64,000 nucleotides of DNA from Chloroflexota bacterium. GTDB taxonomy: Bacteria; Chloroflexota; Anaerolineae; UBA4142. Shown here piece by piece: positions 29,804-47,298 of the stretch (position 1 is its first letter; the number at the start of each line of letters is the position of its first letter). A program made the translations under genes and the position numbers. The stretch is taken from the NCBI GenBank assembly GCA_016219275.1, contig JACRBM010000032.1, forward strand, positions 28,054 through 92,053. The letters are read 5' to 3'. The notes under the pieces are model-generated. The model had not been told where the DNA came from. It did not search any database and saw only the letters and a list, made by a program, of their open reading frames with translations.

Positions 29804-29844
29804 TTGCGTCTCCTTCAATCGTTTGAATCATCCGATTTCTGTTT

Positions 29845-29879
29845 TCGGTTGGGCAGAGCGATTGACCCTGCCCAACCGA
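29845..29879 (-). other. intercistronic stem-loop between dmsC-4 and dmsA-3
   Basis: TCGGTTGGGCAG / CTGCCCAACCGA, 12-bp stem with an 11-nt loop. No U-tract. Confidence 0.6.
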
Positions 29880-29895
29880 TTTCAACGGTCACGAA

Positions 29896-30810: not shown

Positions 30811-30811
30811 G

Positions 30812-31435: not shown

Positions 31436-31438
31436 CGC

Positions 31439-34030
31439 TTATGCCTCCTTGATTGGAACGCGCGGCGACCATTTGTAATCTGGTTCGAGCGGCTTGCCGT
31501 TCCATTTTTCGACTTGCACGACACACGCTTGCCACGATTCGATGTCCGGTCCCGACGCGTAATCGCCCGAGAGGGTATTCGTCGCGCCGGCAATGTCGTT
31601 GCCGTTCTCGTCGAATTCGGGCCACGCGCCTTCGCCGAGGAACACGACGCCGGGTCGCGCGCGCGGGGTGACGCTCACGCGGCGCAGGACGGCGCCGCTC
31701 TTGTTAAAGATGCGCACCGTATCGCCGTGTTTGATTCCGCGCGCGTCGGCGTCCAGCGTGTTGATCATCAATTCTTGGGGCCATGCTTCGCGCAACCAGG
31801 TCACGTTGTCGAGCACCGAGTGCGAGCGGCGCGGATAGTGAATGTTGCACAGTTGGAGTGGGAATTGACCTTTAACCTGCTTTTCCCAATCCGCAAACGT
31901 CGCTTCGTACCCTTCGGTCGGCGGATCGTACACCGCGATGGGATAGCCCTGATTCCATCCGGCATTCGTCACCAAATCCGCTAATTCTTTCGAGTGCAAC
32001 TGTAGTTTGCCGGATTTGGTTTGAAGCGGGTTCGCTTTCGGATCTTTGCGGAATTTTTCAAGGTGAACGTAACCGAGTTTGTCGCCCATCTTGCGCGGCA
32101 CCGCGTAAAATCCTTGCTCGCGAAATTCTTTGAGCGTGATGCGACCTTGTTGTGGTTTGCCGGTCACACCCATCGTCTTGATGTCCTCGTCCGTGATCGT
32201 GACGAGCGGTTCCATACCGGAACCATCAGTCTTCATCACTTTAGCGCCAACCACGATATTGAACGTGCTCTGCGCCTCGGTGAGCGGATTGACTTTGGAG
32301 ACATCCAAACCCAGGCGTTTGGCGATTTCGACCGCGATCCACATATCGTCTTTCGCTTCGAACATTGGTTGCACAACCTGGCTCGCCCAGACGACGAGTT
32401 CGCGATTGCCGGCTTGGAAATTCGAGTAGCGTTCCCAGGGTGTCGTCACCGGGAGCACCAGGTCGGAGTACTTGGCATTGCTGTTCAACCCGTACTGCTG
32501 AGTAACGACGAACTCGACTTTGCGATGCGCGGCGATGCCTTTGTTGATGTTGTTCGTTTGATTCAGGCGCGAGCCGCCGCCGTGATAGATCATTTGAATG
32601 TTGATGTCTTTTTTCGCGCCTTTGCCGGCGGTGTACTTGCCGGTCATGATCGCGTCCCAGTGTTCGTTACTGCACAGACGAATCTTGGTCAGCGGATTCG
32701 CGACCGCCGGCGTGCCGGCAGAACCCAGGGTCACGAGCGAGGGACCGCCGTTCGACGCGGAGTTGTGGCAACTGATTCCGCACGAGCCGCCGGAAATGCC
32801 CATATTGCCGGTCATCGCGCCCAGACTGATCACCGCGAAACAAACGTGTTGCGATTTTTCGACGCGCGCCGAGTTCCAACCAAAGAGGAGCGCAGTCGGT
32901 TTGGTGCGCGCAACTTCGAGCGCGAACGAACGAATTTTTTCGGCGGGCACACCGCAGATGCGCGCCGCCCATTGCGGCGTCTTGGGCGTGTTGTCGTACG
33001 TGCCGAGCACGTAATCCTTGAAACTTTCTTTCGGGTCCGCGCCCTCGGGCATGTGGTCTTTGTCGAACCCGACGGTACACCGAGTGAGGAAATCCCAGTC
33101 AATCAATGGGTTCGCTTTCGGATCGTCTTCGGTGAGCATCACGTACGCCATCGCCAACAGCATCGGCGTGTCGGTGGTCGGGCGAATGGGAATCCATTCG
33201 TCCGCAAGAATACTGGCGGTTGGATTGAAGAACGGATCAACGAAAATGAATTTCGTGCCCGCGCGTTTGGCTTGCAAAAAATTGTAGGACGCCAATCCCA
33301 TGCTACTCCACGCGGGATTGTTCCCCCACATCACGATCAATTTTGAATTGACCAAATCGAAGCGGTCGTTCATTTCGCTTTGCGCGGTCGTGCCCGTGAT
33401 GGGTTGTTGTCCCAATCGCCACGCGCCGCGTGAAGTGCTGCCGTAATTTTCGACGTACCCGCCGGCAAGCGCGAGCGTGCGTTGAATTTCACTGCCGCCG
33501 GTGCAGTAGATAGATTCGTTGCCGTACTTTTCCTTGATGCGTTTGGTTTCGCTCGTAACGATGTCGAGCGCTTCATCCCAGGTAATGCGTACCCATTCGT
33601 CTTTGCCGCGCAATTCTTTTTTGCCGCCGCCCGGCGCCCAGTTCTTGCGCTTCATCGGGTACTTCAAGCGGTCGCTGGAAAACGCTTGCATCCGTTGCGA
33701 ACGACCGCGCAAACATCCGCGTTGCTGCGGAAAATCCGGCGTGTCGGGGTGCGTGTCGTCGGTCTTGACGCGCGTGACGACGCCATCGGTCACGTACGCG
33801 CGAATCGGACAACGTCCGCCGCAATTGTGCCAGCACGCCGCGGCAACCCACTTGCCTTCTTTCGCCGGGGCAACCGTCGCCGGCGCGGCATGGGTTGGTT
33901 TCAAACCAACATCCACCCCACTACTTGCCAACACGGCAGTGCCACCCAACGCCGCGCTCCATTTCAAGAACGTGCGCCGGGAAAGCAAGGTGTCGGTTAA
34001 GGCGCGAGTGACCACATCTTTTTCACTCAT
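31439..34030 (-). CDS. dmsA: Tat-exported DmsA-like catalytic subunit, copy 4
   Basis: RBS GGGAGGA. Tat motif SRRTFLKW. CWHNCGGRC cluster. DmsA-like throughout. Confidence 0.9.
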   Translation of the reverse strand: MSEKDVVTRALTDTLLSRRTFLKWSAALGGTAVLASSGVDVGLKPTHAAPATVAPAKEGKWVAAACWHNCGGRCPIRAYVTDGVVTRVKTDDTHPDTPDFPQQRGCLRGRSQRMQAFSSDRLKYPMKRKNWAPGGGKKELRGKDEWVRITWDEALDIVTSETKRIKEKYGNESIYCTGGSEIQRTLALAGGYVENYGSTSRGAWRLGQQPITGTTAQSEMNDRFDLVNSKLIVMWGNNPAWSSMGLASYNFLQAKRAGTKFIFVDPFFNPTASILADEWIPIRPTTDTPMLLAMAYVMLTEDDPKANPLIDWDFLTRCTVGFDKDHMPEGADPKESFKDYVLGTYDNTPKTPQWAARICGVPAEKIRSFALEVARTKPTALLFGWNSARVEKSQHVCFAVISLGAMTGNMGISGGSCGISCHNSASNGGPSLVTLGSAGTPAVANPLTKIRLCSNEHWDAIMTGKYTAGKGAKKDINIQMIYHGGGSRLNQTNNINKGIAAHRKVEFVVTQQYGLNSNAKYSDLVLPVTTPWERYSNFQAGNRELVVWASQVVQPMFEAKDDMWIAVEIAKRLGLDVSKVNPLTEAQSTFNIVVGAKVMKTDGSGMEPLVTITDEDIKTMGVTGKPQQGRITLKEFREQGFYAVPRKMGDKLGYVHLEKFRKDPKANPLQTKSGKLQLHSKELADLVTNAGWNQGYPIAVYDPPTEGYEATFADWEKQVKGQFPLQLCNIHYPRRSHSVLDNVTWLREAWPQELMINTLDADARGIKHGDTVRIFNKSGAVLRRVSVTPRARPGVVFLGEGAWPEFDENGNDIAGATNTLSGDYASGPDIESWQACVVQVEKWNGKPLEPDYKWSPRVPIKEA

Positions 34031-34052: not shown

Positions 34053-34098
34053 CAAAACAAAAATCCCTGCCCTTGCGCGGAACGCGCAGAAGGCAGGG
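34053..34098 (-). terminator. intrinsic-terminator-like hairpin inside the dmsA-4 leader (attenuator candidate)
   Basis: Minus strand: CCCTGCCTTCTGCGCG-TT-CCGCGCAAGGGCAGGG followed by ATTTTTGTTTT, about 20 nt before the dmsA-4 RBS. Confidence 0.6.
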
Positions 34099-34140: not shown

Positions 34141-34194
34141 TCAGAATACGCTAAAATGATGGCGGGCGCATCTCTCTTTGGAGTAATCCGGCAT
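34141..34194 (-). CDS. candidate 17-codon leader peptide (uORF) MPDYSKERCARHHFSVF
   Basis: The ATG overlaps the TGA of the response-regulator gene (TGATG). The stop lies in the 5' arm of hairpin CTGAAAACAG...CCGTTTTCAG. Counterpart of 22635-22688. Confidence 0.35.
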   Translation of the reverse strand: MPDYSKERCARHHFSVF

Positions 34195-34210
34195 CACCCG
34201 GTTGGGTGAT
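34193..34210. repeat. copy 3 of palindrome ATCACCC-GGTT-GGGTGAT
   Basis: Part of a ~50-nt block shared with 22660-22710 (GCGCATCTCTCTTTGGAGTAAT..GGCATCACCCGGTTGGGTGATTTT). Confidence 0.75.
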
Positions 34211-34880
34211 TTTGCGGCGTCGGCGAAAATGCCAAGCCCGATTGGACGGCGTATGTGGCGACTTGGGTCCGATTTTCGAGACGCAACTTGGCGAGGATGT
34301 TACGCAAATGCACCTTGACGGTGTTGACGGTGATGCACAAGTTTTCGGCGATTTGCGGATTGCTCTCGCCTTGCGCGACGAGGCGGAGGACTTGAATTTC
34401 GCGCTCGGTTAACGCTTGCTCGCCGGTGTTTGCATCGGCATTGTGATGTGCGATGCCTTTGAGCAAACGCGCCGCCATCGCGCGCGTCATCGCGACTTCG
34501 CCTTGCGCCACCCCGCCGAGCAAATCGAACAACTCGGCGGCGTCGAGACTCTTGAGTAAATACCCGGCGACGCCTTGCCGCACCGCGCGATAGAGTTGCT
34601 CGTCGGATTCGGACGCGGTCAAGATGACGACGCGCACATCACTCCAGCGTTGTTGAATTTGCGCGGCGGCGTGCAATCCATCGCCGTCCGGCATTTGCAA
34701 ATCCATTAACACGACATCAGGGTGATGACGCTCGACGAATAGAATGGCTTCGCGCCCGGTCCCGGCTTCACCGACCACATGGACGAGATCGGGTCGCGTG
34801 TTCATCAGCCCGATCAAGCCCTGGCGAAACAGACGGTGATCGTCTGCGATCAAAACGTTCAACGGACAACTTGCATTCAT
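34194..34880 (-). CDS. NarL/FixJ-family response regulator (REC + LuxR-type HTH)
   Basis: Canonical receiver residues (ADDH, VVLMDLQMP, ILTAS, YLLKS). C-terminal LTEREIQVLRLVAQGESNPQIAENLCITVNTVKVHLRNI. A ~12-residue tail runs into the shared repeat block. Confidence 0.9.
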   Translation of the reverse strand: MNASCPLNVLIADDHRLFRQGLIGLMNTRPDLVHVVGEAGTGREAILFVERHHPDVVLMDLQMPDGDGLHAAAQIQQRWSDVRVVILTASESDEQLYRAVRQGVAGYLLKSLDAAELFDLLGGVAQGEVAMTRAMAARLLKGIAHHNADANTGEQALTEREIQVLRLVAQGESNPQIAENLCITVNTVKVHLRNILAKLRLENRTQVATYAVQSGLAFSPTPQNHPTG

Positions 34881-34904: not shown

Positions 34905-36827
34905 TCAACTTTCCAAAACGGGCAAAACCAGATTCACGCGTGTGCCGATACCGATTTCAGAATTGATCGTCAACACGCCGTGGATACTTTCCGCGCGCTC
35001 GCGCATCGTCTGCAAACCAAAATGATCCTTGACGGTGGTCGCCTGAAAGCCAACCCCGTTATCGGTGATACCGATTTGAATCGCGTGATGGCGTTTGGAT
35101 AAACGAACTTGAACGTGACTGGCTTGCGCGTGCTTGCGGACATTCGCCAACGCTTCTTGCACGATCCGCACCAACTGCGCTTCTGCCAACGGCGACAAGC
35201 GCGGCGGCTCTTGAATTTGATCAACGAATTGAACCTGGATGCTGGTCTGCACGCCAAATTCTTCGATGTAATCGCGGAGCGCGACGATCAAACCGGTGTC
35301 GCCCGCAAGCGTCGTGCGCAGACTCAATACATTTTCGCGCACATCGGCTTGCGCCGCATTGATGGACGCGCGCGTCTTGGTCAATTCGGCGCGAATCGAA
35401 TCGAGATCGCCTTGCCGCGTGAACGCTTCGATGGTCTGCATTTCCAAGTTGAGATAACCCAGGATTTGCAGTAGCCCATCGTGCATCTCGCGCGCGATGC
35501 GCGACCGTTCCTCGGTCACCGCGAGCGATTGCAGTCGCGCCGTCATCGCCGCGTGTTCGAGCGCGATCACCGCTTGATCCGCCAATCGTTCCAGTCCAAT
35601 GAGATCCGTCGGCGTAAATGACGCGGGCGACACGCGTCCGATCCACAGTCCACCCAGCACTTGGTTCTCTAACTGGAGCGGTACGCACGCGACCGCGTGG
35701 ATTTTCTGCCCCAGCATCGCGCACGACCATGGTTCTTGCGCCGTCGGCGCATCTTCAGGAAAACGCATCGCTTGATGCGCGCGCAAGGCTTCGATAATCA
35801 GCGGATGAGTCTGGGTCGGCAGATTTTCGTGGCGCGCCCCTTGCGCGGTCGCCAGGCATTTTAGTTCGAGCCGCGATTGGTCTTCGTTCCACAAACCGAG
35901 CGCCGCCAGATCGGACGACAACAATTTACGCGCCAGACTCACGGTCGCGCCAAGCACATCCTCCACGTTTTCCAAATCGGCAACGCGACGACTGATGCTG
36001 ACCAAACCTTCCGTCCAGTTCTCGGCGATTTCACGTTCCGCGCGTTGCGCGGACAGAGCCGTCGTTTGATCGCGTTCGTGTTCGAGTTGCAGCGCGTGTA
36101 ACTGCTGTTCCCGTTCGACCTCGAACACATCGAGCGCGCGCACGACGAAAAACGCGACAGCAATCGCCGATAGCGCGCGCCACATTTGAACGGGCAACCC
36201 CGTCAATTGCCGGACACTTTCATAATTGACCCAGGGGGCGAGTCCGTACGGCGCCGTCGGCACGACCAAGCCGGCGGCGATGCCGTTGAACAGAAACGCG
36301 ACTGCCGCGCCAAACATCAAACGCCGCGCTTGGACAATTCCGCCGCGCGACAATCCGCGCCATTGGCGGACGAATCCAAACACCGCCAAGAGACAGCCGG
36401 GAAAATAAAGCAAGTACCGCGACCAGACATCCGTCGCGATTTTGAGCATGCCGCCGCTCGCCGCCACCGTCAACGCGTACGCGACCAAAAACGCGAGCGG
36501 CACCAGAAGCGCCACCGGCACAAACGCGAGCCATTCCGGCAATGGACCGGCTTCGCTTACCAGTCCAACTCCAAACCGGATCAAGCAGAGCGCCGAAAGG
36601 GGCAACAAGATCATTCGCGCGCCAGTTAAGAATCCATGCGGCGCACCGTCAAGATAGACCATCATGAACATGTCGCACCACTCGACCGCGCTGTGGACTA
36701 GCCCAAACGCTGCGAGCCAGGGCAAATGACGACTGAGCACGAGTTCGCTACTGCGCCGCGCTTCGAGTGCGACGGCGAGACCCATCGCAAAAAATGCCGC
36801 ACCGTAAAAGAAATAAACCGCGAGCAT
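34905..36827 (-). CDS. multi-TM sensor histidine kinase (about 7 TM helices, GAF-like, HisKA_3, HATPase_c)
   Basis: Start ATG 36827 overlaps the upstream TAA by 1 nt. Hydrophobic N-terminal ~290 aa. H-box SRIAREMHDGLLQ. ATPase motifs ITDNGVGF and GLQTMRERA. Confidence 0.85.
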   Translation of the reverse strand: MLAVYFFYGAAFFAMGLAVALEARRSSELVLSRHLPWLAAFGLVHSAVEWCDMFMMVYLDGAPHGFLTGARMILLPLSALCLIRFGVGLVSEAGPLPEWLAFVPVALLVPLAFLVAYALTVAASGGMLKIATDVWSRYLLYFPGCLLAVFGFVRQWRGLSRGGIVQARRLMFGAAVAFLFNGIAAGLVVPTAPYGLAPWVNYESVRQLTGLPVQMWRALSAIAVAFFVVRALDVFEVEREQQLHALQLEHERDQTTALSAQRAEREIAENWTEGLVSISRRVADLENVEDVLGATVSLARKLLSSDLAALGLWNEDQSRLELKCLATAQGARHENLPTQTHPLIIEALRAHQAMRFPEDAPTAQEPWSCAMLGQKIHAVACVPLQLENQVLGGLWIGRVSPASFTPTDLIGLERLADQAVIALEHAAMTARLQSLAVTEERSRIAREMHDGLLQILGYLNLEMQTIEAFTRQGDLDSIRAELTKTRASINAAQADVRENVLSLRTTLAGDTGLIVALRDYIEEFGVQTSIQVQFVDQIQEPPRLSPLAEAQLVRIVQEALANVRKHAQASHVQVRLSKRHHAIQIGITDNGVGFQATTVKDHFGLQTMRERAESIHGVLTINSEIGIGTRVNLVLPVLES

Positions 36828-37540
36828 TACAACGACCTCGCCGGCAAATAACCCGGTCCATACTCCAAATCCAACCAGGTATCGCTGAGATGAATCAATG
36901 CGTCGAAAAACGGACTGGGCGCGCGATCCGACACGCGCCGACAAAATTCCGGAAACCAGCGTCCCAGGTGATCGTCGAGAAAGGTGCGTTCCTGCAATCG
37001 CAATTGCCGCGCCGATTCCGACGCGTTGACTTGCCACACGTCGGATTCGCGCGCGCACAAAAACGCCATGAATTCCAGTTCGACGGGGAGCAGGTCTTCT
37101 TGATTTTCACGCGGCGCTACGCCAAATTGTCCATAGTGTTGGCGAAGCGAACTCGCAAGTTCGTTCGCCGTTTCCAGGAGCGCCGATGCTTCGCGCCACC
37201 GGTACGCCGATTCCCGCATGGGGACGCGATCAATGCTTTTGCCAAACAACCGTTGATAATCGTTCTCCAGATCGGTCAAGGTGAGCGTGGTGCATTCGCG
37301 CAACTTGGTCAAACTCGCCAGAAATTTTTTGCGATCCTCACCGAACCAGACGGTCGCGAGCAAAATTTCTTCGACCAACCGACCGGAATTCACCGCCGAC
37401 ACGAGTTCAGGATCGGGCGCATAGAAACTCAGGGCGAGCCAGCGATAGACCTGACTGCGTCCGCGCGCAACCTGATGCAGAATCGCACAGGCGCGCAATG
37501 TTGGATCGGTTTCGATGGTGTTCGCGGTTGGAGTAATCAT
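36827..37540 (-). CDS. TorD/DmsD-like chaperone, second and more divergent copy
   Basis: YQRLFGKS...PMRESAY...EDLLPVELEFMAFL parallels the TorD-family core. The ATG at 37540 overlaps the upstream stop (ATGA). Confidence 0.65.
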   Translation of the reverse strand: MITPTANTIETDPTLRACAILHQVARGRSQVYRWLALSFYAPDPELVSAVNSGRLVEEILLATVWFGEDRKKFLASLTKLRECTTLTLTDLENDYQRLFGKSIDRVPMRESAYRWREASALLETANELASSLRQHYGQFGVAPRENQEDLLPVELEFMAFLCARESDVWQVNASESARQLRLQERTFLDDHLGRWFPEFCRRVSDRAPSPFFDALIHLSDTWLDLEYGPGYLPARSL

Positions 37541-38157
37541 GTCAAGTAATAGACCGATGGTTCGGTTCCTTTTTCGACGAGTAACTGAAAGTGCAAACGC
37601 GCGGCAAGCAATTGCGCGACCTCGCTTGTCGGATCGTTGAGATCGCCAAACTTGCGCGCTTGTACCGGGCACACATCCACGCACGCCGGATTTTCGCTGC
37701 GCGCAAGCCGATGCGCGCAGAACGTACATTTTTCGACAGTGTGCGCGCGATGCACGAGCGGATTGTCGCCGGTCGGAAACGGCAGGGCGTAACGCGGTTG
37801 TTCATCGGCGAACACGCGCACGCTCGTGAACGGACACACCATCATGCACGAGCGACAGCCGATGCACAGCCCAGGGTCTTGCACGACCACGCCATCTTGC
37901 TCACGACGACTCGTCGCCGTGGAAGGACACACGTCCACGCACGGACCTTGCGCGCAATGTTGGCACGCGAGCGGCAGATATTCGAGACGCAAATCCGGAT
38001 AATTGCCGGCGGGCAGATCGTCGCCGTTCCCGCCAATGGTGACGACGCGCGTCCACCACACACCTTCGGGCAAATTATTTTCCTGCTTGCACGCGACCGA
38101 ACACGTGTTACAACCCGTGCACAGTCGAAGGTCAATCAGCATCACGTATCTAATCAT
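37537..38157 (-). CDS. DmsB/NrfC/PsrB-type 4x[4Fe-4S] subunit without signal peptide
   Basis: CTGCNTCSVACK, CQHCAQGPCVDVCP, CIGCRSCMMVCP, CTFC...CVDVCP. The ATG at 38157 is preceded by AGAGGTGA and overlaps the catalytic-subunit gene by 8 nt. Confidence 0.85.
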   Translation of the reverse strand: MIRYVMLIDLRLCTGCNTCSVACKQENNLPEGVWWTRVVTIGGNGDDLPAGNYPDLRLEYLPLACQHCAQGPCVDVCPSTATSRREQDGVVVQDPGLCIGCRSCMMVCPFTSVRVFADEQPRYALPFPTGDNPLVHRAHTVEKCTFCAHRLARSENPACVDVCPVQARKFGDLNDPTSEVAQLLAARLHFQLLVEKGTEPSVYYLT

Positions 38158-41032
38158 TCGCGTTCACCTCTGCGCGCACGACCTCGACCAATACATCGGA
38201 CAACGACGTGCTCACCCCGAACGCGTTCGTCGCATTGCCGCCGCTGTACGTCAGCGATTGCGGGTGTCCCGCCTTGAAATCCTTGGACTGCCAACCCTGG
38301 GTCAGATAGACCGTGCCCGGCGGAACAGTTTGATTGAGCCGCGCGCGCAGAACGACGAACCCGCGTTCGTTGAACAAGCGCACCCAATCACCATCCTGGA
38401 TTTGCCGCGCGGCGGCGACCGAGGGATGCATCGCCGCGCGGGGTTCGCGATCGAGTTCGCGCAACCACGGCGCGTCGCTAAAGGTCGAGTGAACGCGATA
38501 GCGGCTGTGTTCGGTGATGCAAACCAACGGATAGCGGAGAATTTGTTCGCCTTCGGGATCAGCTTCGCCGGGCGGCTCGTAATTCGGCAACGCCGTGTTG
38601 AATGGCAACAAGCGTTCGACGTAGAACTCGACGCGCCCGGTCGGCGTGTTGAATTTCCAGTCGCGATGCGCGACCTGGGGTTCCGCCGGCACATTCCGAC
38701 GCAATACGCCGCGCGCACACAACTCATCGAACGAAAGTGTGTTCGTCGTTTCATCGGACGCGGCGAGAATTTCTGCGAGGTATTCACGCGGCGCGCGCGT
38801 AAAATAATCGCCGCAACCCAGTTTTTGCGCGACCAGCGCGGCGATGTCAAAATCGGAACGACACTCGCCGGGCGGCGGCACAATGGCGGGTTGATATTGA
38901 ATGTACGGCGTCGGTCCCTTGACCATATCCTCGCGTTCGAAAAACATCGCCGCCGGTAACACATAGTCCGACCAACGCGCGGTCTCGGTCATAAAATGAT
39001 CGGCGGTCACGATCAAATCCAAGCGCGGCAAAACTTCATTGAGCAAGTGCGCGTGATTGGGCCATTGATTGAGCCAGTTGCCGAACGCAACCCAGACCGC
39101 TTTGATCGGATAGGGTCGCCCGCTTATGATTTGTTCGGAGAGCATCACTGGATTGATCGGATGATGTGTTTTGCCGTCGGGAGAGTTGAAATTGTGATTG
39201 AACATCACGCCGTCCGTAAATCCATCCACGCCCGCACCGCCGCCGGGAATTCCCAGGTTGCCGGTCAACGCGGCGAGCGTCGCCATCAAGCGACCGAACG
39301 TCGCGCCGTGATGCCAGCGGTCAATCCCGTACAGCGTAAAAATGCGCGCCGGTCGCGTCGTCGCAAAATCGCGCGCAAGTGCGAAAATGTGATCGGGCGC
39401 GATGCCGGTTTTCTCGGCGACAAATGCCGGCGTGTACGGCTGGAGCATTTCGCGTAATCGGTCGAACGCTGTGCGGCACGCGATGCCGGCGATGTCGTAC
39501 CGACCAGCCAGCGCGGGCGCGCTGGCTTGGTGAGGCGCAACGACGCGACCTTGTTGCGCATCCCACACGAGATAGGATTCGTCGTCGGATTGCAAATCGG
39601 ACGCGCGCAGAAAACGCCCATTGTCCTCGCGCACAAGCAGAGGCGCGACGGTGTGTCGCAAAACAAAATCTTGGTTCATCCAATTTTGTTCGATGATGAG
39701 TCGCGCCAATGCGAGCGCGAGATACAAATCAGTGCCCGGTCTGATCGGTAGCCACGCGTCCGATTTGCTCGCGGTGATACTGAAGCGGGGATCAATCGTC
39801 ACAAGACGCGCGCCCGCGCGTTTGGCATCGAGGAAAGAATTCCACCAGTTCATCCGGCTCTGGGCTGGGTCGCCGCCCCAAATCAAAATCAATTTCGAAT
39901 TCGGGAGGTCGGTGAAATCATTCGCCGTGTAACCCGCGCCGCTACCCAGCGCGTCTTCGATGCCGCTGGGCACCGCGCTATCCACGCCGTACATCGCCGG
40001 ACTGACCGCTGACGCGCCGAGCGCGCTCGCCAAGCGTGAGTAAACACCGTTCATGCTGTTCAGTGTGCCTAGTTGACCGGAGTATGGAAAGAACATCAAA
40101 CTCGAATCGCCGTACTGGGTTGCAATCGTGCGCATCTGCGTGGTAATTTCATCTATCGCTTGATCCCAGGAGAGGCGTTGCCATTTGCCGCTGCCGCGCG
40201 CGCCGGCGCGTTTAAGCGGATGCAACAAGCGCTGCGGATGCGCGAGCATTTGCGTGTAACTGATGCCCTTGAGACAAATACGGCGATAGCGTTCGTCCGG
40301 AAAATCGGCGGGTTCGATTTTGACCACGTGGTTATCGCGCACGGTCACGTTCAATCCGCAAAAATGCGAGCCGCAGTTGAGATTGCACGCGGTTCGCGTC
40401 GTGCGCGTCGGCGCGATGGTAGACACGGTTTTCGATGTGAGGGTTAGCCCGCGCAAAAATGTTTGCTTTTCAGCCGCGTCCGGTTGATCGGCAGAATCCT
40501 GGGACGCCATCGTTGGAATCGTCGGCGCGAGTTGTTCGACGATTTGATCGCTGAGTTGCGCGAGACTGAGTTCCGCGCCATCGCGCGTGTACGCCGATTC
40601 GCCCAGCGGCGCGCCGTCCTGCGCGATCTGCGCGATCTTGTTCGCGATGCCGTTCGCCAACAGGGCGCGTTTGAGCACCTCCGCCACGGCGGGCGCTAGC
40701 TCCGTGGTCAAATCTTCAATGTTCACCACGCCGTTCGCGCCGGTGCGAATGGCGGCATCGCGATAATCGCGCGTGTCAAAAGGTAACAAGACAATCAACG
40801 GCACGGATGGCGCGCTCGATTTCAATTGTCGGAGCAAATCCAACCCAGGTTCGCCAAACGCGAACGGTTCCGCCACCACCACATCGGGTTTCATCTGCGC
40901 CTGCAGCATGAGGTCTTGGCGATTTTGGGCGACCAGGATTTCGGCATTCGCGGCAAGCGTTTGCGAAATGGTTTCGCGCAACCAAACGTGGGGAACGCCG
41001 AGCAAAATTCGAATAGGTGTTTTTGAATTCAT
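38150..41032 (-). CDS. fusion protein: degenerate receiver (pseudo-REC) domain, linker with fossil Tat motif, DmsA-like molybdopterin oxidoreductase
   Basis: ATG 41032 (MNSKTPIRILL) after GGGAG. Residues ~8-130 are CheY-like but the catalytic residues are substituted. EKQTFLRGLTLTS resembles a Tat leader without the twin Arg. Cys cluster CNLNCGSHFC-x27-C. MopB body (KLILIWGGDP, LVTIDPRFS, WLPIRPGTD). No signal peptide. Confidence 0.8.
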   Translation of the reverse strand: MNSKTPIRILLGVPHVWLRETISQTLAANAEILVAQNRQDLMLQAQMKPDVVVAEPFAFGEPGLDLLRQLKSSAPSVPLIVLLPFDTRDYRDAAIRTGANGVVNIEDLTTELAPAVAEVLKRALLANGIANKIAQIAQDGAPLGESAYTRDGAELSLAQLSDQIVEQLAPTIPTMASQDSADQPDAAEKQTFLRGLTLTSKTVSTIAPTRTTRTACNLNCGSHFCGLNVTVRDNHVVKIEPADFPDERYRRICLKGISYTQMLAHPQRLLHPLKRAGARGSGKWQRLSWDQAIDEITTQMRTIATQYGDSSLMFFPYSGQLGTLNSMNGVYSRLASALGASAVSPAMYGVDSAVPSGIEDALGSGAGYTANDFTDLPNSKLILIWGGDPAQSRMNWWNSFLDAKRAGARLVTIDPRFSITASKSDAWLPIRPGTDLYLALALARLIIEQNWMNQDFVLRHTVAPLLVREDNGRFLRASDLQSDDESYLVWDAQQGRVVAPHQASAPALAGRYDIAGIACRTAFDRLREMLQPYTPAFVAEKTGIAPDHIFALARDFATTRPARIFTLYGIDRWHHGATFGRLMATLAALTGNLGIPGGGAGVDGFTDGVMFNHNFNSPDGKTHHPINPVMLSEQIISGRPYPIKAVWVAFGNWLNQWPNHAHLLNEVLPRLDLIVTADHFMTETARWSDYVLPAAMFFEREDMVKGPTPYIQYQPAIVPPPGECRSDFDIAALVAQKLGCGDYFTRAPREYLAEILAASDETTNTLSFDELCARGVLRRNVPAEPQVAHRDWKFNTPTGRVEFYVERLLPFNTALPNYEPPGEADPEGEQILRYPLVCITEHSRYRVHSTFSDAPWLRELDREPRAAMHPSVAAARQIQDGDWVRLFNERGFVVLRARLNQTVPPGTVYLTQGWQSKDFKAGHPQSLTYSGGNATNAFGVSTSLSDVLVEVVRAEVNAND

Positions 41033-41068
41033 GATGACTCCCAAACATACCAAACGCGCACGCTCATT

Positions 41069-41105
41069 CTAAAACAACGAGCGACTCCTGTCAGTCAGGA
41101 GTCGC
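41069..41105 (-). terminator. intrinsic terminator after the second response-regulator gene
   Basis: Minus strand: GCGACTCCTG-ACTGA-CAGGAGTCGC followed by TCGTTGTTTTAG. It separates TCS-2 from the fusion-enzyme operon. Confidence 0.7.
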
Positions 41106-41140
41106 CCGATAGAATTTGTGGTAGTTTGTACGGACAGCGC

Positions 41141-41776
41141 TCAGTCGAGCAATTTGTGGTGCAACGCATACTCGACCAATTCGGAACGATGCGCCAAGCC
41201 CAATTTTTGCATGATGCGTTCGCGATATGTCTCGACGGTCCGCGGCGACAGCGCGAGTTGATCGCCGATTTCGCGGCTCGTGTACCCCTTTGCCGTCAAC
41301 ACAAGAACTTGGCGTTCGCGTTCTGAAAGTGGATCGCGATCGGGCTTGGGCGATTGATGGTCGCGCACCATCGCGGCAACACCTTCGGGTTGTAGAAACG
41401 ATTCGCCGCGTGCGACCGCGCGAATCGCCGCGACGACATCGCGGTCAGCCGCCGATTTGCGAACATACCCGGCGCCGCCGGCTTGTAGAAATGGCACGAG
41501 GTACGCATCCTCGTCGTGCATCGTCAGCGCGAGCACGTGCGCATTGGGTAAAGTTGCGTGAATGCGTCGCGTCGCTTCGACGCCGTCGAAATCCGGCAGA
41601 GTAATATCCATCACGACCACATCCGGTTGCAGATCGAGTGTTTGTCGAACGGCGCGCGCGCCATCTGCCGCTTCACCTACAACTACCATGTCGGATTGTT
41701 TTTCGAGCAACAGCCGCACACCGGTGCGCACGACCGCGTGATCATCCACAAGCAAAACGCGAATCGGCGCGGTCAT
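41141..41776 (-). CDS. NarL/FixJ-family response regulator, second copy
   Basis: VDDH, VVVMDITLP, ALTMH and YVRKS receiver residues. LSERERQVLVLTAKGYTSREIGDQLALSPRTVETYRERI HTH. The ATG overlaps the kinase stop (ATGA). Confidence 0.9.
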   Translation of the reverse strand: MTAPIRVLLVDDHAVVRTGVRLLLEKQSDMVVVGEAADGARAVRQTLDLQPDVVVMDITLPDFDGVEATRRIHATLPNAHVLALTMHDEDAYLVPFLQAGGAGYVRKSAADRDVVAAIRAVARGESFLQPEGVAAMVRDHQSPKPDRDPLSERERQVLVLTAKGYTSREIGDQLALSPRTVETYRERIMQKLGLAHRSELVEYALHHKLLD

Positions 41777-42951
41777 TTCGATTCTCCCAACGGCAACTCG
41801 ATCAAGATGCGGGTCCCGGCATCGGGTGCGGAATCTACTTGCAAGCGTCCGCCCACAAGCGCCACGCGTTCGCGCATGCCTTCCAAGCCCATACCGTTTC
41901 GATGGTCAATTCCAGGATTCATCCCTTTGCCATCGTCTTCAATCGTGAGCCAAACGGCGCGCGCGCCTTGTTCCAAGGTGACACTCGCATGATGCGCCTG
42001 CGCGTGGCGCACGATATTCGTCAGTCCTTCCTGCACCGCGCGATACAAAATAATTTCGTGGTCGGTTGGCAAGCGGTCTATGGTAGGGCTAGGAGTGAAA
42101 ACGATCTCGATGCCGCTTCGTTTGCACCATTCTTGAACGTACCCGCGAATCGCCGGCACCAAGCCCAGGTCGTCGAGCGCGGTTGGACGCAAATCCATGG
42201 CAAGTCGCCGTACCTCTTCGAGCGTTTCGCCGGTGAGATAGCGCAGACCATTGATTCGATCGTGAATCAATTCGAGGTCGGTTTCGGTTTGCAATGCTTT
42301 CAAGCGCAGCAAGATCGAGGTGAGCGATTGCCCGGTCTCATCATGCAATTCGCGCGCGAGGCGTTTGCGTTCCGCTTCCTGCGCGGAGAGGGCATGGTGC
42401 AAGAGGTGTTCAAGGCGTTCGCGCTTGGCTTGCACGTCCGCGAGCAAGCGCAGGTTCTCCTGATTCAACTCCGCCATTTCGCGTTGTTGGCGCAGCAAAG
42501 CCAGGTTCGTTTCGCGCAGACTATTCACCATCGTGTTGAATTCAGATTGCACCTCGCCGATTTCATCGCGCGCCCAAATCGGAATTTGGACGGTGAGGTC
42601 GCCGGCTTTGACGCGTCCCATCGCGCGCACAATATTTTGGAGTGGATGAACGAGGATTCGCGTAAAAATGACCGCCAGCCCCAAGCCCAGTAAAGCGACG
42701 CCGACAAAAACGGTCGCGGCTTGCTCAGTTAAAGCAATAAAGATTTGAGCTTGAATGGACTGCGCGCCGTGTATCTGGAGCAGTACGCCGAGACGCTCGC
42801 GGATGAACAATGCTCCACCAATGCCGCCAACCAAAAGCGGCAACACAATCAGCCCGATTACTTTGAGAGCAACCGGCGTCGCGCCAATCCATTGCCAGAA
42901 GATACCTATCCGTTCCTCCACGCGCGTCAAGATTGATTGATGCAATTTCAT
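41773..42951 (-). CDS. NarX-like sensor histidine kinase (2 TM, HAMP, HisKA_3, HATPase_c)
   Basis: H-box LARELHDETGQSL. HAMP-like VHPLQNIVRAMGRVKAGDLTVQIP. IEDDGKGM and GLEGMRERV ATPase motifs. Start uncertain (42951 MKLHQS, or 43020). Confidence 0.85.
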   Translation of the reverse strand: MKLHQSILTRVEERIGIFWQWIGATPVALKVIGLIVLPLLVGGIGGALFIRERLGVLLQIHGAQSIQAQIFIALTEQAATVFVGVALLGLGLAVIFTRILVHPLQNIVRAMGRVKAGDLTVQIPIWARDEIGEVQSEFNTMVNSLRETNLALLRQQREMAELNQENLRLLADVQAKRERLEHLLHHALSAQEAERKRLARELHDETGQSLTSILLRLKALQTETDLELIHDRINGLRYLTGETLEEVRRLAMDLRPTALDDLGLVPAIRGYVQEWCKRSGIEIVFTPSPTIDRLPTDHEIILYRAVQEGLTNIVRHAQAHHASVTLEQGARAVWLTIEDDGKGMNPGIDHRNGMGLEGMRERVALVGGRLQVDSAPDAGTRILIELPLGESK

Positions 42952-43086
42952 GCTCACAGTCCCGTTCCGATTCGGAAGACCACAACCCCGAACGTTCTTC
43001 AACACCTTCGCCAAAATCATAAATTGATCCGCGAATAACGCGAATCACGCGAATTTTCGAGACTGTAGCATGCCCGCCGGTAAAAT

Positions 43087-44372: not shown

Positions 44373-45323
44373 CTACGAGTAACGCACGCGCGGATCGAGC
44401 ACGCCGTACAGCATATCCACGATCATGTTGAAGATGATAAACAAACTTGCCGAGGTCAGAATCACGCCTTGCACGATGGGATAATCGCGCCGACCCAACG
44501 CGGTGACGAGCAACGTCGAAAGTCCGGGCCAATTGAAAATGTACTCGACCAGCACCGAGCCGCCGATGAGTGTGCCCATTTGCAAACCGATGACCGTCAC
44601 GATTGGAATGAGTGCGTTGCTCAACATGTGCCGCGTCACGACGACGCGCTCGTGCAGACCTTTGGCGCGCGCGGTGCGAACGTAATCCTGCTGAAAGACT
44701 TCGAGCATACTCGAACGCGTCATGCGCGTGATGATCGCCATCGGTCCAAGCGCGAGCGTGATCGCGGGCAAGGTCAAACGGCGCAGATGTTCGGTCCAAC
44801 TATCGGTGATCGGCGCGTAGCCGGCAATCGGCAACCAACGCCAGGTGACGCCGAATAAAAGCACGAGCAACGTGCCAACAACATAGACCGGCGAGGAAAT
44901 GCCAAGCGCGCCGAGGATCGAAAGCACGCGATCGGTGGGACGATTCCAACGTAACGCCGCGAAAATTCCCAGGGGTATGCCGATCAAGGTTGCCAGGATC
45001 ATCGCGACGGTTACGAGTTCTAGTGTGCGCGGCAGGCGTTCCGCAATCGTGTCCCACACCGGCGAGCCGTCCACGAGCGACAAACCCAGGTCGCGTTGAA
45101 TCAGTCCACCGAGCCAGCGCACGTACTGCACCGGCAGGGGTTGATCTAAACCCAGTTTCACGCGCACCGCTTCCACAACTTTAGGATCGGGCGTGCGTTC
45201 CGAACCCAGGATGATCATGACCGGATCGCCGGGGAGGAGATGCACCAAACTAAAGACAATGGTCTCGACGAGCAAGACCAACAGCAGAGAGATGAGTACG
45301 CGACGGATCAGAAATCGGCTCAA
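44373..45323 (-). CDS. ABC transporter permease (DppB/OppB-like)
   Basis: LSRFLIRRVLISLLLVLLVETIVFSLVHLLPGDP is the typical N-terminus. Probable TTG start at 45323 after GAGG. The track ORF to 45491 runs through an inverted repeat. Confidence 0.8.
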   Translation of the reverse strand: MSRFLIRRVLISLLLVLLVETIVFSLVHLLPGDPVMIILGSERTPDPKVVEAVRVKLGLDQPLPVQYVRWLGGLIQRDLGLSLVDGSPVWDTIAERLPRTLELVTVAMILATLIGIPLGIFAALRWNRPTDRVLSILGALGISSPVYVVGTLLVLLFGVTWRWLPIAGYAPITDSWTEHLRRLTLPAITLALGPMAIITRMTRSSMLEVFQQDYVRTARAKGLHERVVVTRHMLSNALIPIVTVIGLQMGTLIGGSVLVEYIFNWPGLSTLLVTALGRRDYPIVQGVILTSASLFIIFNMIVDMLYGVLDPRVRYS

Positions 45324-45356
45324 GGAGGTGACTCCGACCTCACACCCTACCCCCGT

Positions 45357-45418
45357 CCCCTCCCCCCTCTCCTCTAGCCACGCCCTTAAGGACGTGGCGA
45401 GAGGAGAGGGGGGAGGGG
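45357..45418. repeat. perfect 18-bp G/C-rich inverted repeat with nested palindromes
   Basis: CCCCTCCCCCCTCTCCTC (45357-45374) pairs with GAGGAGAGGGGGGAGGGG (45401-45418). Inner GCCACG...CGTGGC surrounds CCTTAAGG. It lies in the spacer between hyuB and the permease gene. Confidence 0.8.
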
Positions 45419-45447
45419 TGCCGAAGGCGGGGAGGGGGGTGAGGCAA

Positions 45448-47199: not shown

Positions 47200-47221
47200 T
47201 CTTCACTCCAAAAATTCTTTG

Positions 47222-47291
47222 AACCGCGAAGGCGCAAAGAACGCAAAGTGTTTTTATTTTTTCTCTTGGCGTTCTTTGCGTCTTCGCGGTT
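47222..47291. repeat. 23-bp inverted repeat in the hyuA-hyuB spacer
   Basis: AACCGCGAAGGCGCAAAGAACGC (47222-47244) pairs with GCGTTCTTTGCGTCTTCGCGGTT (47269-47291), one mismatch, AT-rich loop. Confidence 0.8.
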
Positions 47292-47298
47292 GATGTTT

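What the first reader, a model, noticed from the sequence alone, without database searches (positions are those of the whole stretch)
38150..41032. DmsA-like molybdoenzyme fused to a degenerate receiver domain, with a fossil Tat leader between the two halves
This is one uninterrupted ~960-codon ORF. Residues ~8-130 have the layout of a CheY-like receiver (PIRILLGV...DVVVAEPFAF...PLIVLLPFD...ANGVVNIE). Aligned by eye to CheY, every catalytic position is substituted: no DD pair, Glu for the phospho-Asp, Pro for Thr87, Asn for Lys109. That makes it a pseudo-receiver. After a ~90 aa linker comes EKQTFLRGLTLTSKTVSTIA. This aligns with the genuine Tat leaders of the four DmsA paralogs downstream (SRRSFLKWSAVLGGTAALA), except that the twin Arg is Lys-Gln. 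Next is a Cys cluster, CNLNCGSHFC-x27-C, one residue longer than the C-x3-C-x3-C of the DmsA copies. A full MopB body follows, with a Ser at the expected Mo-ligand position (MYGVDSAV vs E. coli HYGDYSSAQ, from memory). The protein has no signal peptide and the locus has no anchor gene, so the enzyme should be cytoplasmic. I know of no characterised Mo/W-bisPGD enzyme carrying an N-terminal receiver domain.
Basis: partly seen in the sequence, partly recalled or inferred. Interest (0 to 1): 0.8.

Follow-up and report, generated by a model that had tools for sequence, protein, structure and literature searches.

The report
Molybdoenzyme carrying a dead receiver domain
A non-exported molybdenum-enzyme subunit carries a non-phosphorylatable two-component "receiver" domain and the remains of an export signal, and it is always encoded next to sensor-less histidine kinases, which suggests the enzyme itself feeds signal into the kinase system.

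Summary
Window 38150-41032 (-) is one 960-aa ORF under purifying selection. It consists of a pseudo-receiver (aa 7-140), a disordered linker with a decayed Tat motif (aa 189-205), a four-Cys FS0 motif and a complete Mo/W-bisPGD body.

- The body is closest to type II enzymes (PcrA, EbdA), not DmsA.
- The invariant Asp351 is a better Mo-ligand candidate than Ser352.
- A DmsB-like 4Fe-4S gene (37537-38157) was missed.
- The architecture is not rare. About 70 protein clusters in Anaerolineae have it, including Aggregatilinea lenta.

A sister clade in Desulfitobacterium, Desulfosporosinus and relatives has the same pseudo-receiver in front of a fully intact Tat signal. That shows the query motif is a remnant.

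The pseudo-receiver tracks a HisKA_3 kinase / NarL regulator pair. All 24 pseudo-receiver loci with enough flank have the pair. None of 57 related loci without the pseudo-receiver has it. The partner kinases have no sensor domain.

Best model (inferred): the pseudo-receiver couples the enzyme/FeS module to these kinases, much as the regulatory hydrogenase HoxBC couples to HoxJ. I found no paper describing this architecture. Substrate and mechanism are untested.

The parts
38150..41032 (-). pREC-MopB: a 960-aa Mo/W-bisPGD catalytic-type subunit with an N-terminal pseudo-receiver
   Evidence: ORF and translation; Pfam and NCBIfam; 62-member family alignment; AF2 pLDDT 85; best PDB fold match PcrA, 1.6e-54
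40613..41014 (-). Pseudo-receiver domain, aa 7-140: (beta-alpha)5 fold with a long alpha5 helix. The Mg-binding acidic pair, Thr and Lys are all absent, and Glu55 replaces the phospho-Asp.
   Evidence: dN/dS is 0.09 against the closest orthologue.
40409..40612 (-). Disordered linker, aa 141-208. It carries conserved short motifs: SAPxGE with P142 and G144 invariant, and LSxxAVERL at aa 157-168.
   Evidence: pLDDT below 50; column frequencies
40418..40468 (-). Remnant Tat signal, aa 189-205 (KQTFLRGLTLTSKTVST). The twin arginine and the hydrophobic h-region are lost.
   Evidence: No TM segment is predicted. The homologous position holds an intact Tat signal in the sister clade.
40250..40405 (-). 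FS0 [4Fe-4S] domain with C216, C220, C225 and C253
   Evidence: Pfam PF04879; the four Cys and His223 are invariant
39977..39982 (-). Asp351-Ser352, the candidate Mo/W ligand position
   Evidence: D351 is invariant in 62/62 family members. The equivalent Asp is invariant in the sister clade (35/35) and conserved in the short relatives. Ser352 is not conserved outside the family.
37537..38157 (-). DmsB/ArrB/NrfC-like four-cluster ferredoxin subunit, 206 aa. Its start overlaps the MopB stop by 8 nt.
   Evidence: It is 55% identical to the FeS subunit of the Desulfitobacterium cassette.
36827..37540 (-). TorD/NarJ-family chaperone, 237 aa. Best model match is the type II DMSO-reductase chaperone. 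Its start forms an ATGA overlap with the FeS stop.
34905..36827 (-). Histidine kinase with about 6 TM helices, then GAF, HisKA_3 and HATPase domains. Its start overlaps the chaperone stop (TAATG).
   Evidence: Present in every Anaerolineae locus with enough flank.
34194..34880 (-). NarL-type response regulator (RR_dn), the last gene of the five-gene operon
41141..41776 (-). NarL-type response regulator (RR_up), orthologous to the regulator upstream of pREC-Tat-MopB genes in Desulfitobacterium (54-62% identity)
41773..43020 (-). HAMP-HisKA_3 kinase with two TM helices and a loop of about 17 aa, so it has no sensor domain. It is orthologous (47-55% identity) to the soluble sensor-less or GAF kinases of the sister clade.
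41066..41108 (-). Terminator-like hairpin after RR_up (13-bp stem), overlapped by a promoter-like site (CTGACA-17-TAGAAT), just upstream of pREC-MopB
34065..34098 (-). GC-rich hairpin followed by a T-run, downstream of RR_dn and within the leader of Tat-DmsA1. It marks the end of the cassette.

Best explanation
What it is (shown). The ORF encodes a non-exported Mo/W-bisPGD catalytic-type subunit. It descends from a Tat-exported enzyme that already carried an N-terminal NarL-type pseudo-receiver. In this Anaerolineae lineage the Tat signal decayed and the NrfD-type membrane anchor is absent. [quoted passage not shown]

How it most likely works (inferred).
- The chaperone probably binds the remnant Tat peptide during cofactor insertion, as NarJ does on NarG.
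- The pseudo-receiver cannot be phosphorylated. It most likely serves as a docking module for the dedicated HisKA_3 kinases, or for their NarL-type regulators.
- Through that contact, the substrate or redox state of the cytoplasmic Mo/FeS module would set kinase output. The module would thus act as co-sensor for kinases that have no sensor domain of their own.
- The output would be the expression of the cassette and probably of the neighbouring Tat-DmsABC respiratory operons.

This would be a molybdenum counterpart of the regulatory hydrogenase HoxBC acting on HoxJ and HoxA.
For: Anatomy.

Purifying selection on all three parts: dN/dS is 0.09 (pseudo-receiver), 0.27 (linker) and 0.13 (MopB body).

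Operon structure:
- MopB, FeS, TorD-like and GAF-kinase genes have overlapping stops and starts, and RR_dn follows about 25 nt after the kinase stop.
- A promoter-like site lies upstream of pREC-MopB.
- Terminator-like hairpins lie upstream of pREC-MopB and downstream of RR_dn.

Cassette conservation: the cassette is conserved in all Anaerolineae loci with enough flank, including the isolate A. lenta.

Sister clade:
- It has the same pseudo-receiver in front of an intact Tat signal, in the order HK-RR-[pREC-Tat-MopB]-FeS-NrfD-TorD.
- Its kinase and regulator are orthologues of the window's upstream pair: 47-55% and 54-62% identity.

Co-occurrence with the two-component pair:
- 24 of 24 pseudo-receiver loci carry this pair.
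- 0 of 57 related loci without the pseudo-receiver carry it.

The partner kinases lack sensors:
- D. dichloroeliminans: a 247-aa protein consisting only of DHp and CA domains.
- D. hafniense and the JGI contig L031: GAF plus kinase core, 383-387 aa.
- The window: two TM helices with a 17-aa loop.

Pseudo-receiver origin: it derives from NarL-type receivers, the cognate partner class of HisKA_3 kinases.

Respiratory neighbours: Tat-DmsA operons, often with tatA/tatC, lie next to the cassette in about 70% of Anaerolineae loci.

Precedents: remnant Tat peptide and NarJ (PMC10609526); HoxBC-HoxJ (PMC6978683).
Against:
- The co-occurrence test is not corrected for phylogeny. It probably reflects only a few independent events.
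- An adjacent two-component system could simply control transcription of the enzyme genes.
- The MopB body is as conserved as in a working enzyme, so a purely catalytic role is not excluded. The regulatory hydrogenase also keeps its catalytic site, so this point does not discriminate.
- A. lenta and some other loci have no Tat-DmsA operon within 10 kb.
- The most conserved face of the pseudo-receiver is alpha4-beta5-alpha5, which is a dimerisation or output face. It is not alpha1, the classical kinase-docking helix.
- The direction of information flow (enzyme to kinase, or kinase to enzyme) is unknown.
Confidence: 0.5

Rival explanations
1. It is an ordinary cytoplasmic reductase, or another redox enzyme, with a soluble FeS partner. 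The neighbouring two-component genes only control its transcription. The pseudo-receiver is a structural or dimerisation domain, using its long alpha5 as a coiled coil, or an allosteric cap. It has no signalling role.
For: - The active-site region and cofactor-binding body are fully conserved.
- dN/dS for the body is 0.13.
- The FeS and chaperone genes are retained.
- Related short cytoplasmic MopB+FeS pairs exist without any kinase.
- Soluble Tat-less members are known in the catechol dehydroxylase class (PMC7028382).
- The extended alpha5 resembles receivers that dimerise through it, such as WspR and PleD.
- Many pseudo-receiver structures are constitutive dimers (PMC12632262).
Against: - It does not explain why the pseudo-receiver occurs only where this particular kinase/regulator pair is adjacent (24/24 against 0/57).
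- It does not explain why those kinases lack sensor domains.
- It does not explain why a receiver fold of NarL type was recruited.
- No electron donor or anchor is encoded in the cassette.
Confidence: 0.3
2. The pseudo-receiver is a maturation or quality-control module inherited from the exported ancestor. In that ancestor it sits in front of the Tat signal and holds the precursor in the cytoplasm, or recruits the chaperone or Moco machinery, until cofactors are inserted. In the Anaerolineae form it is a leftover of that role. The link to the two-component genes would then be indirect.
For: - In the sister clade the domain directly precedes a canonical Tat signal.
- A TorD-like chaperone gene is always in the cassette.
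- Chaperones of this family bind Tat or remnant-Tat peptides and proofread cofactor insertion (PMC10609526).
- The linker contains conserved short motifs that could be binding sites.
Against: - Paralogues in the same genomes mature with TorD-like chaperones and ordinary Tat signals, without any pseudo-receiver.
- A receiver fold has no known chaperone function.
- Strong purifying selection on the domain persists after export was lost.
- It does not account for the strict kinase/regulator co-occurrence.
Confidence: 0.13
3. It is an artefact or a decaying gene: a chimeric assembly that joins a regulator fragment to a MopB gene, or a pseudogene that lost its export signal.
For: The Pfam receiver hit is below threshold. 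The Tat motif is degenerate.
Against: - The same full-length architecture occurs in more than 60 independent assemblies and in the A. lenta isolate genome.
- There are no internal stops.
- All segments have dN/dS well below 1.
- The cofactor ligands are invariant.
Confidence: 0.02

Closest known systems
Type II DMSO-reductase-family catalytic subunits (PcrA perchlorate reductase, EbdA, NarG)
   Same: - These are the best sequence and fold matches: PcrA 6e-63 and Foldseek 1.6e-54 with TM 0.74.
- The query shares with PcrA the insertion at aa 462-535, which DmsA lacks.
- An invariant Asp lies near the Mo-ligand position.
- The chaperone's best model match is the type II chaperone.
- NarG likewise keeps a remnant Tat peptide that is bound by NarJ.
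   Different: - Identity is only about 25%.
- All curated NCBIfam cut-offs are missed (386 against 985 bits).
- FS0 is Cys-x3-Cys-x4-Cys rather than His/Cys-x3-Cys-x3-Cys.
- The FeS partner is the small DmsB/ArrB type, not NarH type.
- No heme or anchor subunit is present.
- It has an N-terminal pseudo-receiver.
E. coli DmsA and the four Tat-DmsABC paralogues in the same window
   Same: Same superfamily and domain order. Each also has a DmsB-like partner and a TorD-family chaperone.
   Different: - Identity is 22-30%.
- There is no functional Tat signal and no DmsC anchor.
- The Cys spacing differs, and there is an extra insertion.
- TIGR02166 scores 332 against a cut-off of 778.
- The ligand is probably Asp rather than Ser.
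Regulatory [NiFe]-hydrogenase HoxBC with the kinase HoxJ and the regulator HoxA (HupUV/HupT/HupR)
   Same: - Both are cytoplasmic paralogues of exported, energy-conserving metalloenzymes that have lost the export signal.
- Both keep their cofactors.
- Both are encoded with a histidine kinase and a response regulator.
- Both lie next to the respiratory paralogues they could control (PMC6978683).
   Different: - The metal centre and fold are different.
- The proposed contact is through a fused pseudo-receiver, not a C-terminal extension binding a PAS domain.
- A sensing function is not demonstrated here.
Bacterial pseudo-receiver domains (reviewed in PMC12632262)
   Same: It has the receiver fold and homology but lacks phosphotransfer residues. 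It arose within a normal regulator family (NarL/FixJ).
   Different: It is fused to a 750-aa Mo/W-bisPGD enzyme body, and in the sister clade it is placed upstream of a Tat signal. The review has no occurrence of 'molybd' or 'oxidoreductase'.
Sister clade: pREC-Tat-MopB proteins of Desulfitobacterium hafniense, D. dichloroeliminans, Desulfosporosinus and Syntrophomonadaceae (uncharacterised)
   Same: - Same pseudo-receiver subtype, with Pro-His in place of the acidic pair.
- Same order of modules.
- Orthologous kinase, regulator and FeS genes.
   Different: - The Tat signal is intact and an NrfD anchor gene is present, so the enzyme is exported and membrane-bound.
- The pseudo-receiver keeps Asp, Ser and Lys.
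- There is no second kinase with six TM helices and a GAF domain.

Membership tests
Mo/W-bisPGD (MopB / DMSO reductase) superfamily, catalytic subunit | Molybdopterin oxidoreductase domain plus the C-terminal dinucleotide-binding domain | tested here: met
   PF00384 1.5e-50 and PF01568 1.4e-20, both above the gathering cut-offs. The fold matches PcrA and EbdA.
Mo/W-bisPGD (MopB / DMSO reductase) superfamily, catalytic subunit | N-terminal FS0 [4Fe-4S] motif with four ligands | tested here: met
   PF04879 7e-09. C216, C220, C225 and C253 are invariant in 62 sequences.
Mo/W-bisPGD (MopB / DMSO reductase) superfamily, catalytic subunit | Protein ligand to Mo/W (Ser, Cys, Sec or Asp) and bound cofactor | tested here: inconclusive
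   D351 is invariant and conserved in all related clades. S352 aligns without gaps with my recollection of E. coli DmsA Ser205. MAFFT and HMMER place the known ligands within 1-2 residues. Metal and cofactor content cannot be tested here.
DmsA/YnfE subfamily (TIGR02166) | Score above the curated cut-off; Tat signal; DmsC anchor in the operon | tested here: not met
   331.8 bits against a cut-off of 777.7. No Pfam TAT_signal hit. No TM segment. No DmsC or NrfD gene in the cassette.
Type II DMSO reductase alpha subunit (TIGR03479) | Score above the curated cut-off; NarH-type beta subunit; type II chaperone | tested here: not met
   Alpha 386.5 against 984.75. Beta 102.9 against 480.7, and chaperone 70.4 against 152.3. 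It is the nearest known group but this protein is not a member by these criteria.
Response-regulator receiver domain (CheY-like, PF00072) | (beta-alpha)5 fold and sequence homology | tested here: met
   The Pfam hit alone is below cut-off (18.5-23.2 against 30.2 bits). The family profile hits PDB receivers at 3e-11. The AF2 and Foldseek top 50 are all receivers.
Response-regulator receiver domain (CheY-like, PF00072) | Phosphorylation machinery: acidic pair, phospho-Asp, Thr/Ser, Lys | tested here: not met
   The positions read Pro14-His15, Glu55, Pro84 and Ile105. Across the family, position 55 is Asp in 44, Glu in 11 and Ala in 7 sequences, and no member has the acidic pair. It is therefore a pseudo-receiver.
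Tat (twin-arginine) signal peptide | S/T-R-R-x-F-L-K motif, hydrophobic h-region, N-terminal position | tested here: not met
   The query has KQTFLRGL, a polar following stretch, and an internal position at aa 189-205. An HMM built from Tat leaders gives non-significant scores. It is homologous by position to intact signals in the sister clade, where R176, R177 and F179 are invariant. It is therefore a remnant.
Sensor ('regulatory') metalloenzyme coupled to a two-component system (HoxBC/HoxJ type) | Non-exported paralogue of respiratory enzymes, encoded with a kinase and a regulator | tested here: met
Sensor ('regulatory') metalloenzyme coupled to a two-component system (HoxBC/HoxJ type) | Physical complex with the kinase, and control of the catalytic paralogues' expression | not testable with these tools
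   Needs interaction assays, multimer modelling or genetics.

The most novel reading that the evidence does not exclude
This is a family of molybdenum enzymes turned into signal-input devices. A fused pseudo-receiver wires the enzyme directly to sensor-less HisKA_3 kinases. The cell would then sense a respiratory substrate, or redox flux, through the enzyme that handles it.
- In the Anaerolineae form, the enzyme has given up export and its quinone anchor and become a dedicated cytoplasmic sensor, the molybdenum equivalent of the regulatory hydrogenase.
- In the Desulfitobacterium form, the pseudo-receiver stays on the cytoplasmic side of a Tat signal. It would report on an exported enzyme, or on its export.
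Probability: 0.35. Interest if true: 0.88.

Novelty: new variant of a known kind. Interest (0 to 1): 0.72.

Why it matters
Mo/W-bisPGD enzymes and two-component systems are both heavily studied, but I found no description of a receiver-type domain fused to a MopB catalytic subunit.

The fusion is conserved in two phyla and in cultured strains (Aggregatilinea lenta, Desulfitobacterium hafniense, D. dichloroeliminans). It is under purifying selection. It is tied strictly to kinases that lack sensor domains.

If the coupling is real, four things follow:
- It would explain how some of the many orphan molybdoenzyme paralogues in organisms like Desulfitobacterium are matched to their inducers.
- It would add a molybdenum example to the short list of enzyme-based sensors.
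- It would give a concrete function for one class of pseudo-receivers, whose mechanisms are largely unknown.
- It would provide a dated series for how an exported respiratory enzyme becomes cytoplasmic: intact Tat signal, then remnant.

It also matters for annotation. Pfam-based domain architectures miss the receiver, because the hit is below threshold.

Tried and rejected
- **Tat-leader HMM.** I built it from 14 genuine leaders and scanned the 62 N-termini. Scores were not above shuffled controls, although the commonest best hit was at aa 187-196. By itself this could not establish a Tat remnant. The sister-clade comparison did.
- **Second candidate remnant.** MAFFT placed the DmsA leaders at aa 118-135 (A. 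lenta TRRGLVDSVA against E. coli SRRGLVKTTA). I judged this an alignment placement inside helix alpha5.
- **Kinase membrane domain as a disguised DmsC/NrfD anchor.** There was no Pfam match even at E=10. Not supported.
- **Same pseudo-receiver in other architectures.** The word-indexed search found only ordinary NarL regulators and one fragment. The exhaustive HMM search found only family members, fragments and the two Tat-bearing relatives.
- **Chimeric assembly and pseudogene.** Both rejected.
- **Rfam scan.** It found no known RNA in the cassette.
- **Literature searches for the architecture.** They found nothing.
- **Catechol dehydroxylase class.** Whether the wider clade overlaps this class (PMC7028382) could not be tested, because I had no reference sequences.

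Full report
**1. What is in the sequence**

On the minus strand there is one uninterrupted ORF, 38150-41053. The likely start is ATG 41032, seven bases after GGGAG, which gives 960 aa.

Pfam finds four domains:
- Response_reg at aa 19-103 (E=0.0023, 18.5 bits, below the 30.2-bit cut-off)
- Molybdop_Fe4S4 at aa 210-261
- Molybdopterin at aa 268-735 (1.5e-50)
- Molydop_binding at aa 836-919.

NCBIfam ranks the type II DMSO-reductase alpha model first (386 bits) and dmsA/ynfE second (332 bits). Both are far below their curated cut-offs.

The AF2 model of the whole protein has pLDDT 85. It shows a (beta-alpha)5 domain at aa 7-104 whose last helix extends to aa 140. A segment at aa 140-208 is disordered (pLDDT below 50). 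The rest is a confident MopB body.

**2. The N-terminal domain is a true but dead receiver**

Homology and fold:
- A profile of 28 family N-termini hits about 198 receiver domains in the PDB. NarL-family proteins are best (4e7o 3e-11; NarL 2e-8).
- 15 of the 28 members reach E below 0.1 against Pfam Response_reg.
- hhalign aligns the domain end to end with both NarL-type regulators of the window (2.4e-7 and 1.1e-5).
- A separate AF2 model of aa 1-150 has pLDDT 88. Its 50 best Foldseek matches in the PDB are all receivers, with TM up to 0.85. They include receivers with a long alpha5, such as WspR and PleD.

Catalytic positions:
- In those alignments the acidic pair is Pro14-His15, the phospho-Asp is Glu55, the Thr is Pro84 and the Lys is Ile105.
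- Across 62 homologues the acidic pair is never present.
- Position 55 is Asp in 44, Glu in 11 and Ala in 7 sequences. Phosphorylation therefore cannot be required.

Against the closest orthologue the domain has dN/dS 0.09, the linker 0.27 and the MopB body 0.13. The domain is therefore maintained by selection.

**3. The enzyme body**

The four FS0 cysteines (C216-x3-C220-x4-C225-x27-C253) and His223 are invariant.

The nearest solved structures are the Asp-ligated type II enzymes:
- PcrA: phmmer 6e-63; Foldseek 1.6e-54, TM 0.74
- EbdA next.

The query shares with PcrA the insertion at aa 462-535, which E. coli DmsA and the window's DmsAs lack. Identity is 30% to E. coli DmsA and 22-27% to the four window DmsAs.

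On the Mo ligand, the evidence points to Asp:
- Asp351 is invariant in the family (62/62).
- The equivalent Asp is invariant in the sister clade (35/35).
- It is also present in the short relatives that were aligned (GDA, GDS or VDM).
- Ser352 is not conserved outside the family.
- Alignment programs place the known ligands (PcrA Asp170, DmsA Ser) within one or two residues of this pair.

I therefore consider Asp351 the more likely ligand. It rests on a gapless alignment that I could reproduce only from my memory of which DmsA serine is the ligand.

**4. The neighbourhood**

All genes below are on the minus strand:

| Gene | Coordinates | Notes |
|---|---|---|
| HAMP-HisKA_3 kinase | 41773-43020 | two TM helices about 17 aa apart, no sensor domain |
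| NarL-type regulator RR_up | 41141-41776 | |
| pREC-MopB | 38150-41032 | the ORF under study |
| TorD/NarJ-family chaperone | 36827-37540 | best model: type II chaperone |
| 6TM-GAF-HisKA_3 kinase | 34905-36827 | about six TM helices |
| NarL-type regulator RR_dn | 34194-34880 | |
| Four DmsA-type clusters | downstream | three are DmsA-DmsB-DmsC; the 25584-29818 cluster has DmsA, DmsC and a multiheme cytochrome but no recognised DmsB. All four DmsA carry an RRxFLKW Tat leader |

- Stops and starts overlap between MopB and FeS (8 nt), FeS and TorD (ATGA), and TorD and the kinase (TAATG).
- A 13-bp terminator-like hairpin and an overlapping promoter-like site lie just upstream of the ORF.
- A strong hairpin with a T-run follows RR_dn.

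The five genes therefore look like one operon.

**5. The family**

About 70 protein clusters of 940-990 aa share the full architecture at 47-81% identity. All come from Chloroflexota/Anaerolineae, including the cultured Aggregatilinea lenta. JGI's own annotation for several of them combines 'anaerobic dehydrogenase' with 'NarL/FixJ response regulator'.

In the genome loci that reach far enough, the order pREC-MopB / FeS / TorD / 6TM-GAF kinase is conserved, and RR_dn follows in most. The HAMP kinase and RR_up lie upstream in most, but not in Aggregatilinea. Tat-DmsA operons, often with tatA/tatC, follow in roughly 70%.

This recurrence rules out a chimeric join.

**6. The sister clade and the fossil Tat leader**

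An exhaustive HMM search with the N-terminal profile separates the family (at least 105 bits) from generic receivers (at most 92 bits). It also uncovers two divergent members that have an intact internal Tat signal.

Searching with one of them found 36 proteins of 940-1014 aa among the best 120 hits. They come from Desulfitobacterium hafniense, D. dichloroeliminans, Desulfosporosinus, Syntrophomonadaceae and metagenomes.

These proteins have:
- the same pseudo-receiver subtype, with Pro-His in place of the acidic pair, but keeping Asp (34/35), Ser (29/35) and Lys (26/35)
- a linker
- a canonical signal: S/T-R-R-x-F-L-K with both Arg and the Phe invariant in 35/35, an Ala/Gly/Val/Thr-rich h-region, and a conserved A-L-A
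- the FS0 motif and MopB body after that.

In the query family the same position reads x-[R/Q]-[T/V]-F-L-R-G-L followed by polar residues. One member still has RR.

This is direct comparative evidence that aa 189-205 are a decayed Tat signal. NarG is the known precedent: its remnant Tat peptide is the binding site of NarJ (PMC10609526). The cassette's TorD-like protein is the obvious candidate partner here, but that is inference.

A coarse NJ tree shows the Anaerolineae clade as monophyletic. It shows pseudo-receiver-bearing and pseudo-receiver-free proteins interleaved in the Tat clade, which implies repeated loss or gain.

**7. The link to two-component genes**

In D. dichloroeliminans, D. 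hafniense and a JGI contig the order is kinase - NarL regulator - pREC-Tat-MopB - FeS - NrfD - TorD.

Those kinases are soluble. One is only 247 aa (coiled coil, DHp and CA). Two are GAF plus kinase core.

They and their regulators are orthologues of the window's upstream pair: 47-55% and 54-62% identity, against 32-35% to RR_dn. The FeS proteins are 55% identical.

Relatives without the pseudo-receiver lack this pair:
- two Tat paralogues, in Desulfitobacterium sp. PCE1 and a Coriobacteriia MAG
- five short cytoplasmic relatives.

As a wider control I fetched 80 metagenome loci of related MopB genes:
- 78 lack the pseudo-receiver. Of the 50 with at least 2.5 kb upstream, none has a HisKA_3 kinase or NarL regulator within about 6 kb.
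- One of the two pseudo-receiver loci has both genes directly upstream (70% and 75% identity to the D. dichloroeliminans pair).
- The other contig is too short to judge.

Overall the count is 24/24 against 0/57 (Fisher 4e-21). The test is not corrected for shared ancestry, so the true number of independent events is small.

**8. How it most likely works**

Shown:
- the protein is not exported
- it cannot be phosphorylated on the receiver
- it is selected as a whole
- it is co-inherited with a specific kinase/regulator pair whose kinases lack sensor domains.

Inferred:
- The pseudo-receiver docks to the kinase DHp domain or to the regulator's receiver. NarL-type receivers are the natural partners of HisKA_3 kinases.
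- Through this contact the state of the Mo/FeS module (substrate-bound, reduced or assembled) sets kinase output.
- The loss of export and of the NrfD anchor, the retention of cofactor sites, the embedding in a kinase/regulator operon and the position next to true respiratory DmsABC operons all parallel the regulatory hydrogenase HoxBC-HoxJ-HoxA (PMC6978683).

I put about 0.5 on coupling in this sense and about 0.35 on the stronger reading that the module is primarily a sensor.

The main rival (0.3) is a working cytoplasmic reductase whose pseudo-receiver is structural. A maturation role is a weaker rival (0.13).

The substrate is unknown. The wider clade may overlap the catechol dehydroxylase class, which also has exported and soluble forms (PMC7028382). 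I could not test that.

**9. Novelty**

I found no paper describing a receiver-MopB fusion.
- The 2025 pseudo-receiver review does not mention molybdoenzymes.
- Internal Tat signals are known after Sec-inserted helices (PMC5449189), not after a soluble domain.

I class this as a new variant of a known kind. It could become a new kind of sensor if the coupling is demonstrated.

Noticed in passing
Sister-clade proteins P0252, P0345, P0361-P0464; loci L029 (9001-11916), L030 (9001-11958), L031 (9001-11898), L034 (4436-7459): In Desulfitobacterium, Desulfosporosinus, Syntrophomonadaceae and metagenomes, the same pseudo-receiver sits N-terminal to a fully canonical Tat signal (RR and F invariant in 35/35, conserved A-L-A) on an exported MopB with FeS and NrfD partners. 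A folded cytoplasmic domain in front of a Tat signal appears to be undescribed. After cleavage, a stub of about 200 aa (pseudo-receiver plus signal peptide) would remain at the membrane.
   Followed up: partly
L029 7475-8218 (D. dichloroeliminans CP003344.1): The histidine kinase next to pREC-Tat-MopB is only 247 aa. It has a coiled coil, DHp and CA domains, with no sensor domain and no TM helix.
   Followed up: partly
window 34166-34187 (-) and 22660-22681 (-); hairpins at 34065-34098 and 22556-22591: An exact 22-nt box, ATTACTCCAAAGAGAGATGCGC, occurs twice against 0 expected by chance. Each copy lies in the leader of a Tat-DmsA operon (DmsA1 and DmsA3). Each is followed by a CTGAA...TTCAG hairpin and a terminator-like GC hairpin with a T-run just before the RBS. 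This may be a shared operator plus attenuator. There is no Rfam match at gathering threshold.
   Followed up: partly
window 7925-8094 (-): A Moco/Wco riboswitch (RF01055, 66 bits, E=1e-13) lies upstream of the 215-aa ORF at 7217-7864.
   Followed up: no
window 34905-36827 (-), aa 1-240 of the GAF kinase: This is a membrane domain of about six helices. It has conserved motifs (including invariant WLA and RFG stretches in the 18-sequence alignment) and no Pfam match even at E=10. It is found only with the Anaerolineae cassette in the loci examined.
   Followed up: partly
window 14164-34030 (-): There are four DmsA-type clusters in a row; all four DmsA carry an RRxFLKW Tat leader. The 25584-29818 cluster also has a multiheme cytochrome c gene (24548-25660) and no recognised DmsB gene. 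Large CarboxypepD_reg-domain proteins lie at 22688-24538 and 11418-13565. A second TorD-like gene is at 10640-11500.
   Followed up: partly
L012 (JAJTYX010000073.1, labelled Gammaproteobacteria MAG): Its gene order over 22 kb matches that of the Anaerolineales/Chloroflexi contigs L010 and L018, and all three match the query equally (59% identity). The contig is probably misbinned.
   Followed up: no
window 40553-40667 (aa 122-160) and 40529-40564 (aa 157-168): The linker has conserved short motifs of unknown role: LVNGVAxxIxxxAxxSAPxGE (A137, P142 and G144 invariant) and LSxxAVERL. They may be binding sites for the chaperone, a kinase or the MopB body.
   Followed up: no
window 45193-49443 (+): A 1416-aa ORF with no Pfam match lies antisense to genuine hydantoinase A and B genes (47299-49536 and 45448-47199, minus strand). 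It is almost certainly a spurious shadow ORF in GC-rich DNA.
   Followed up: yes
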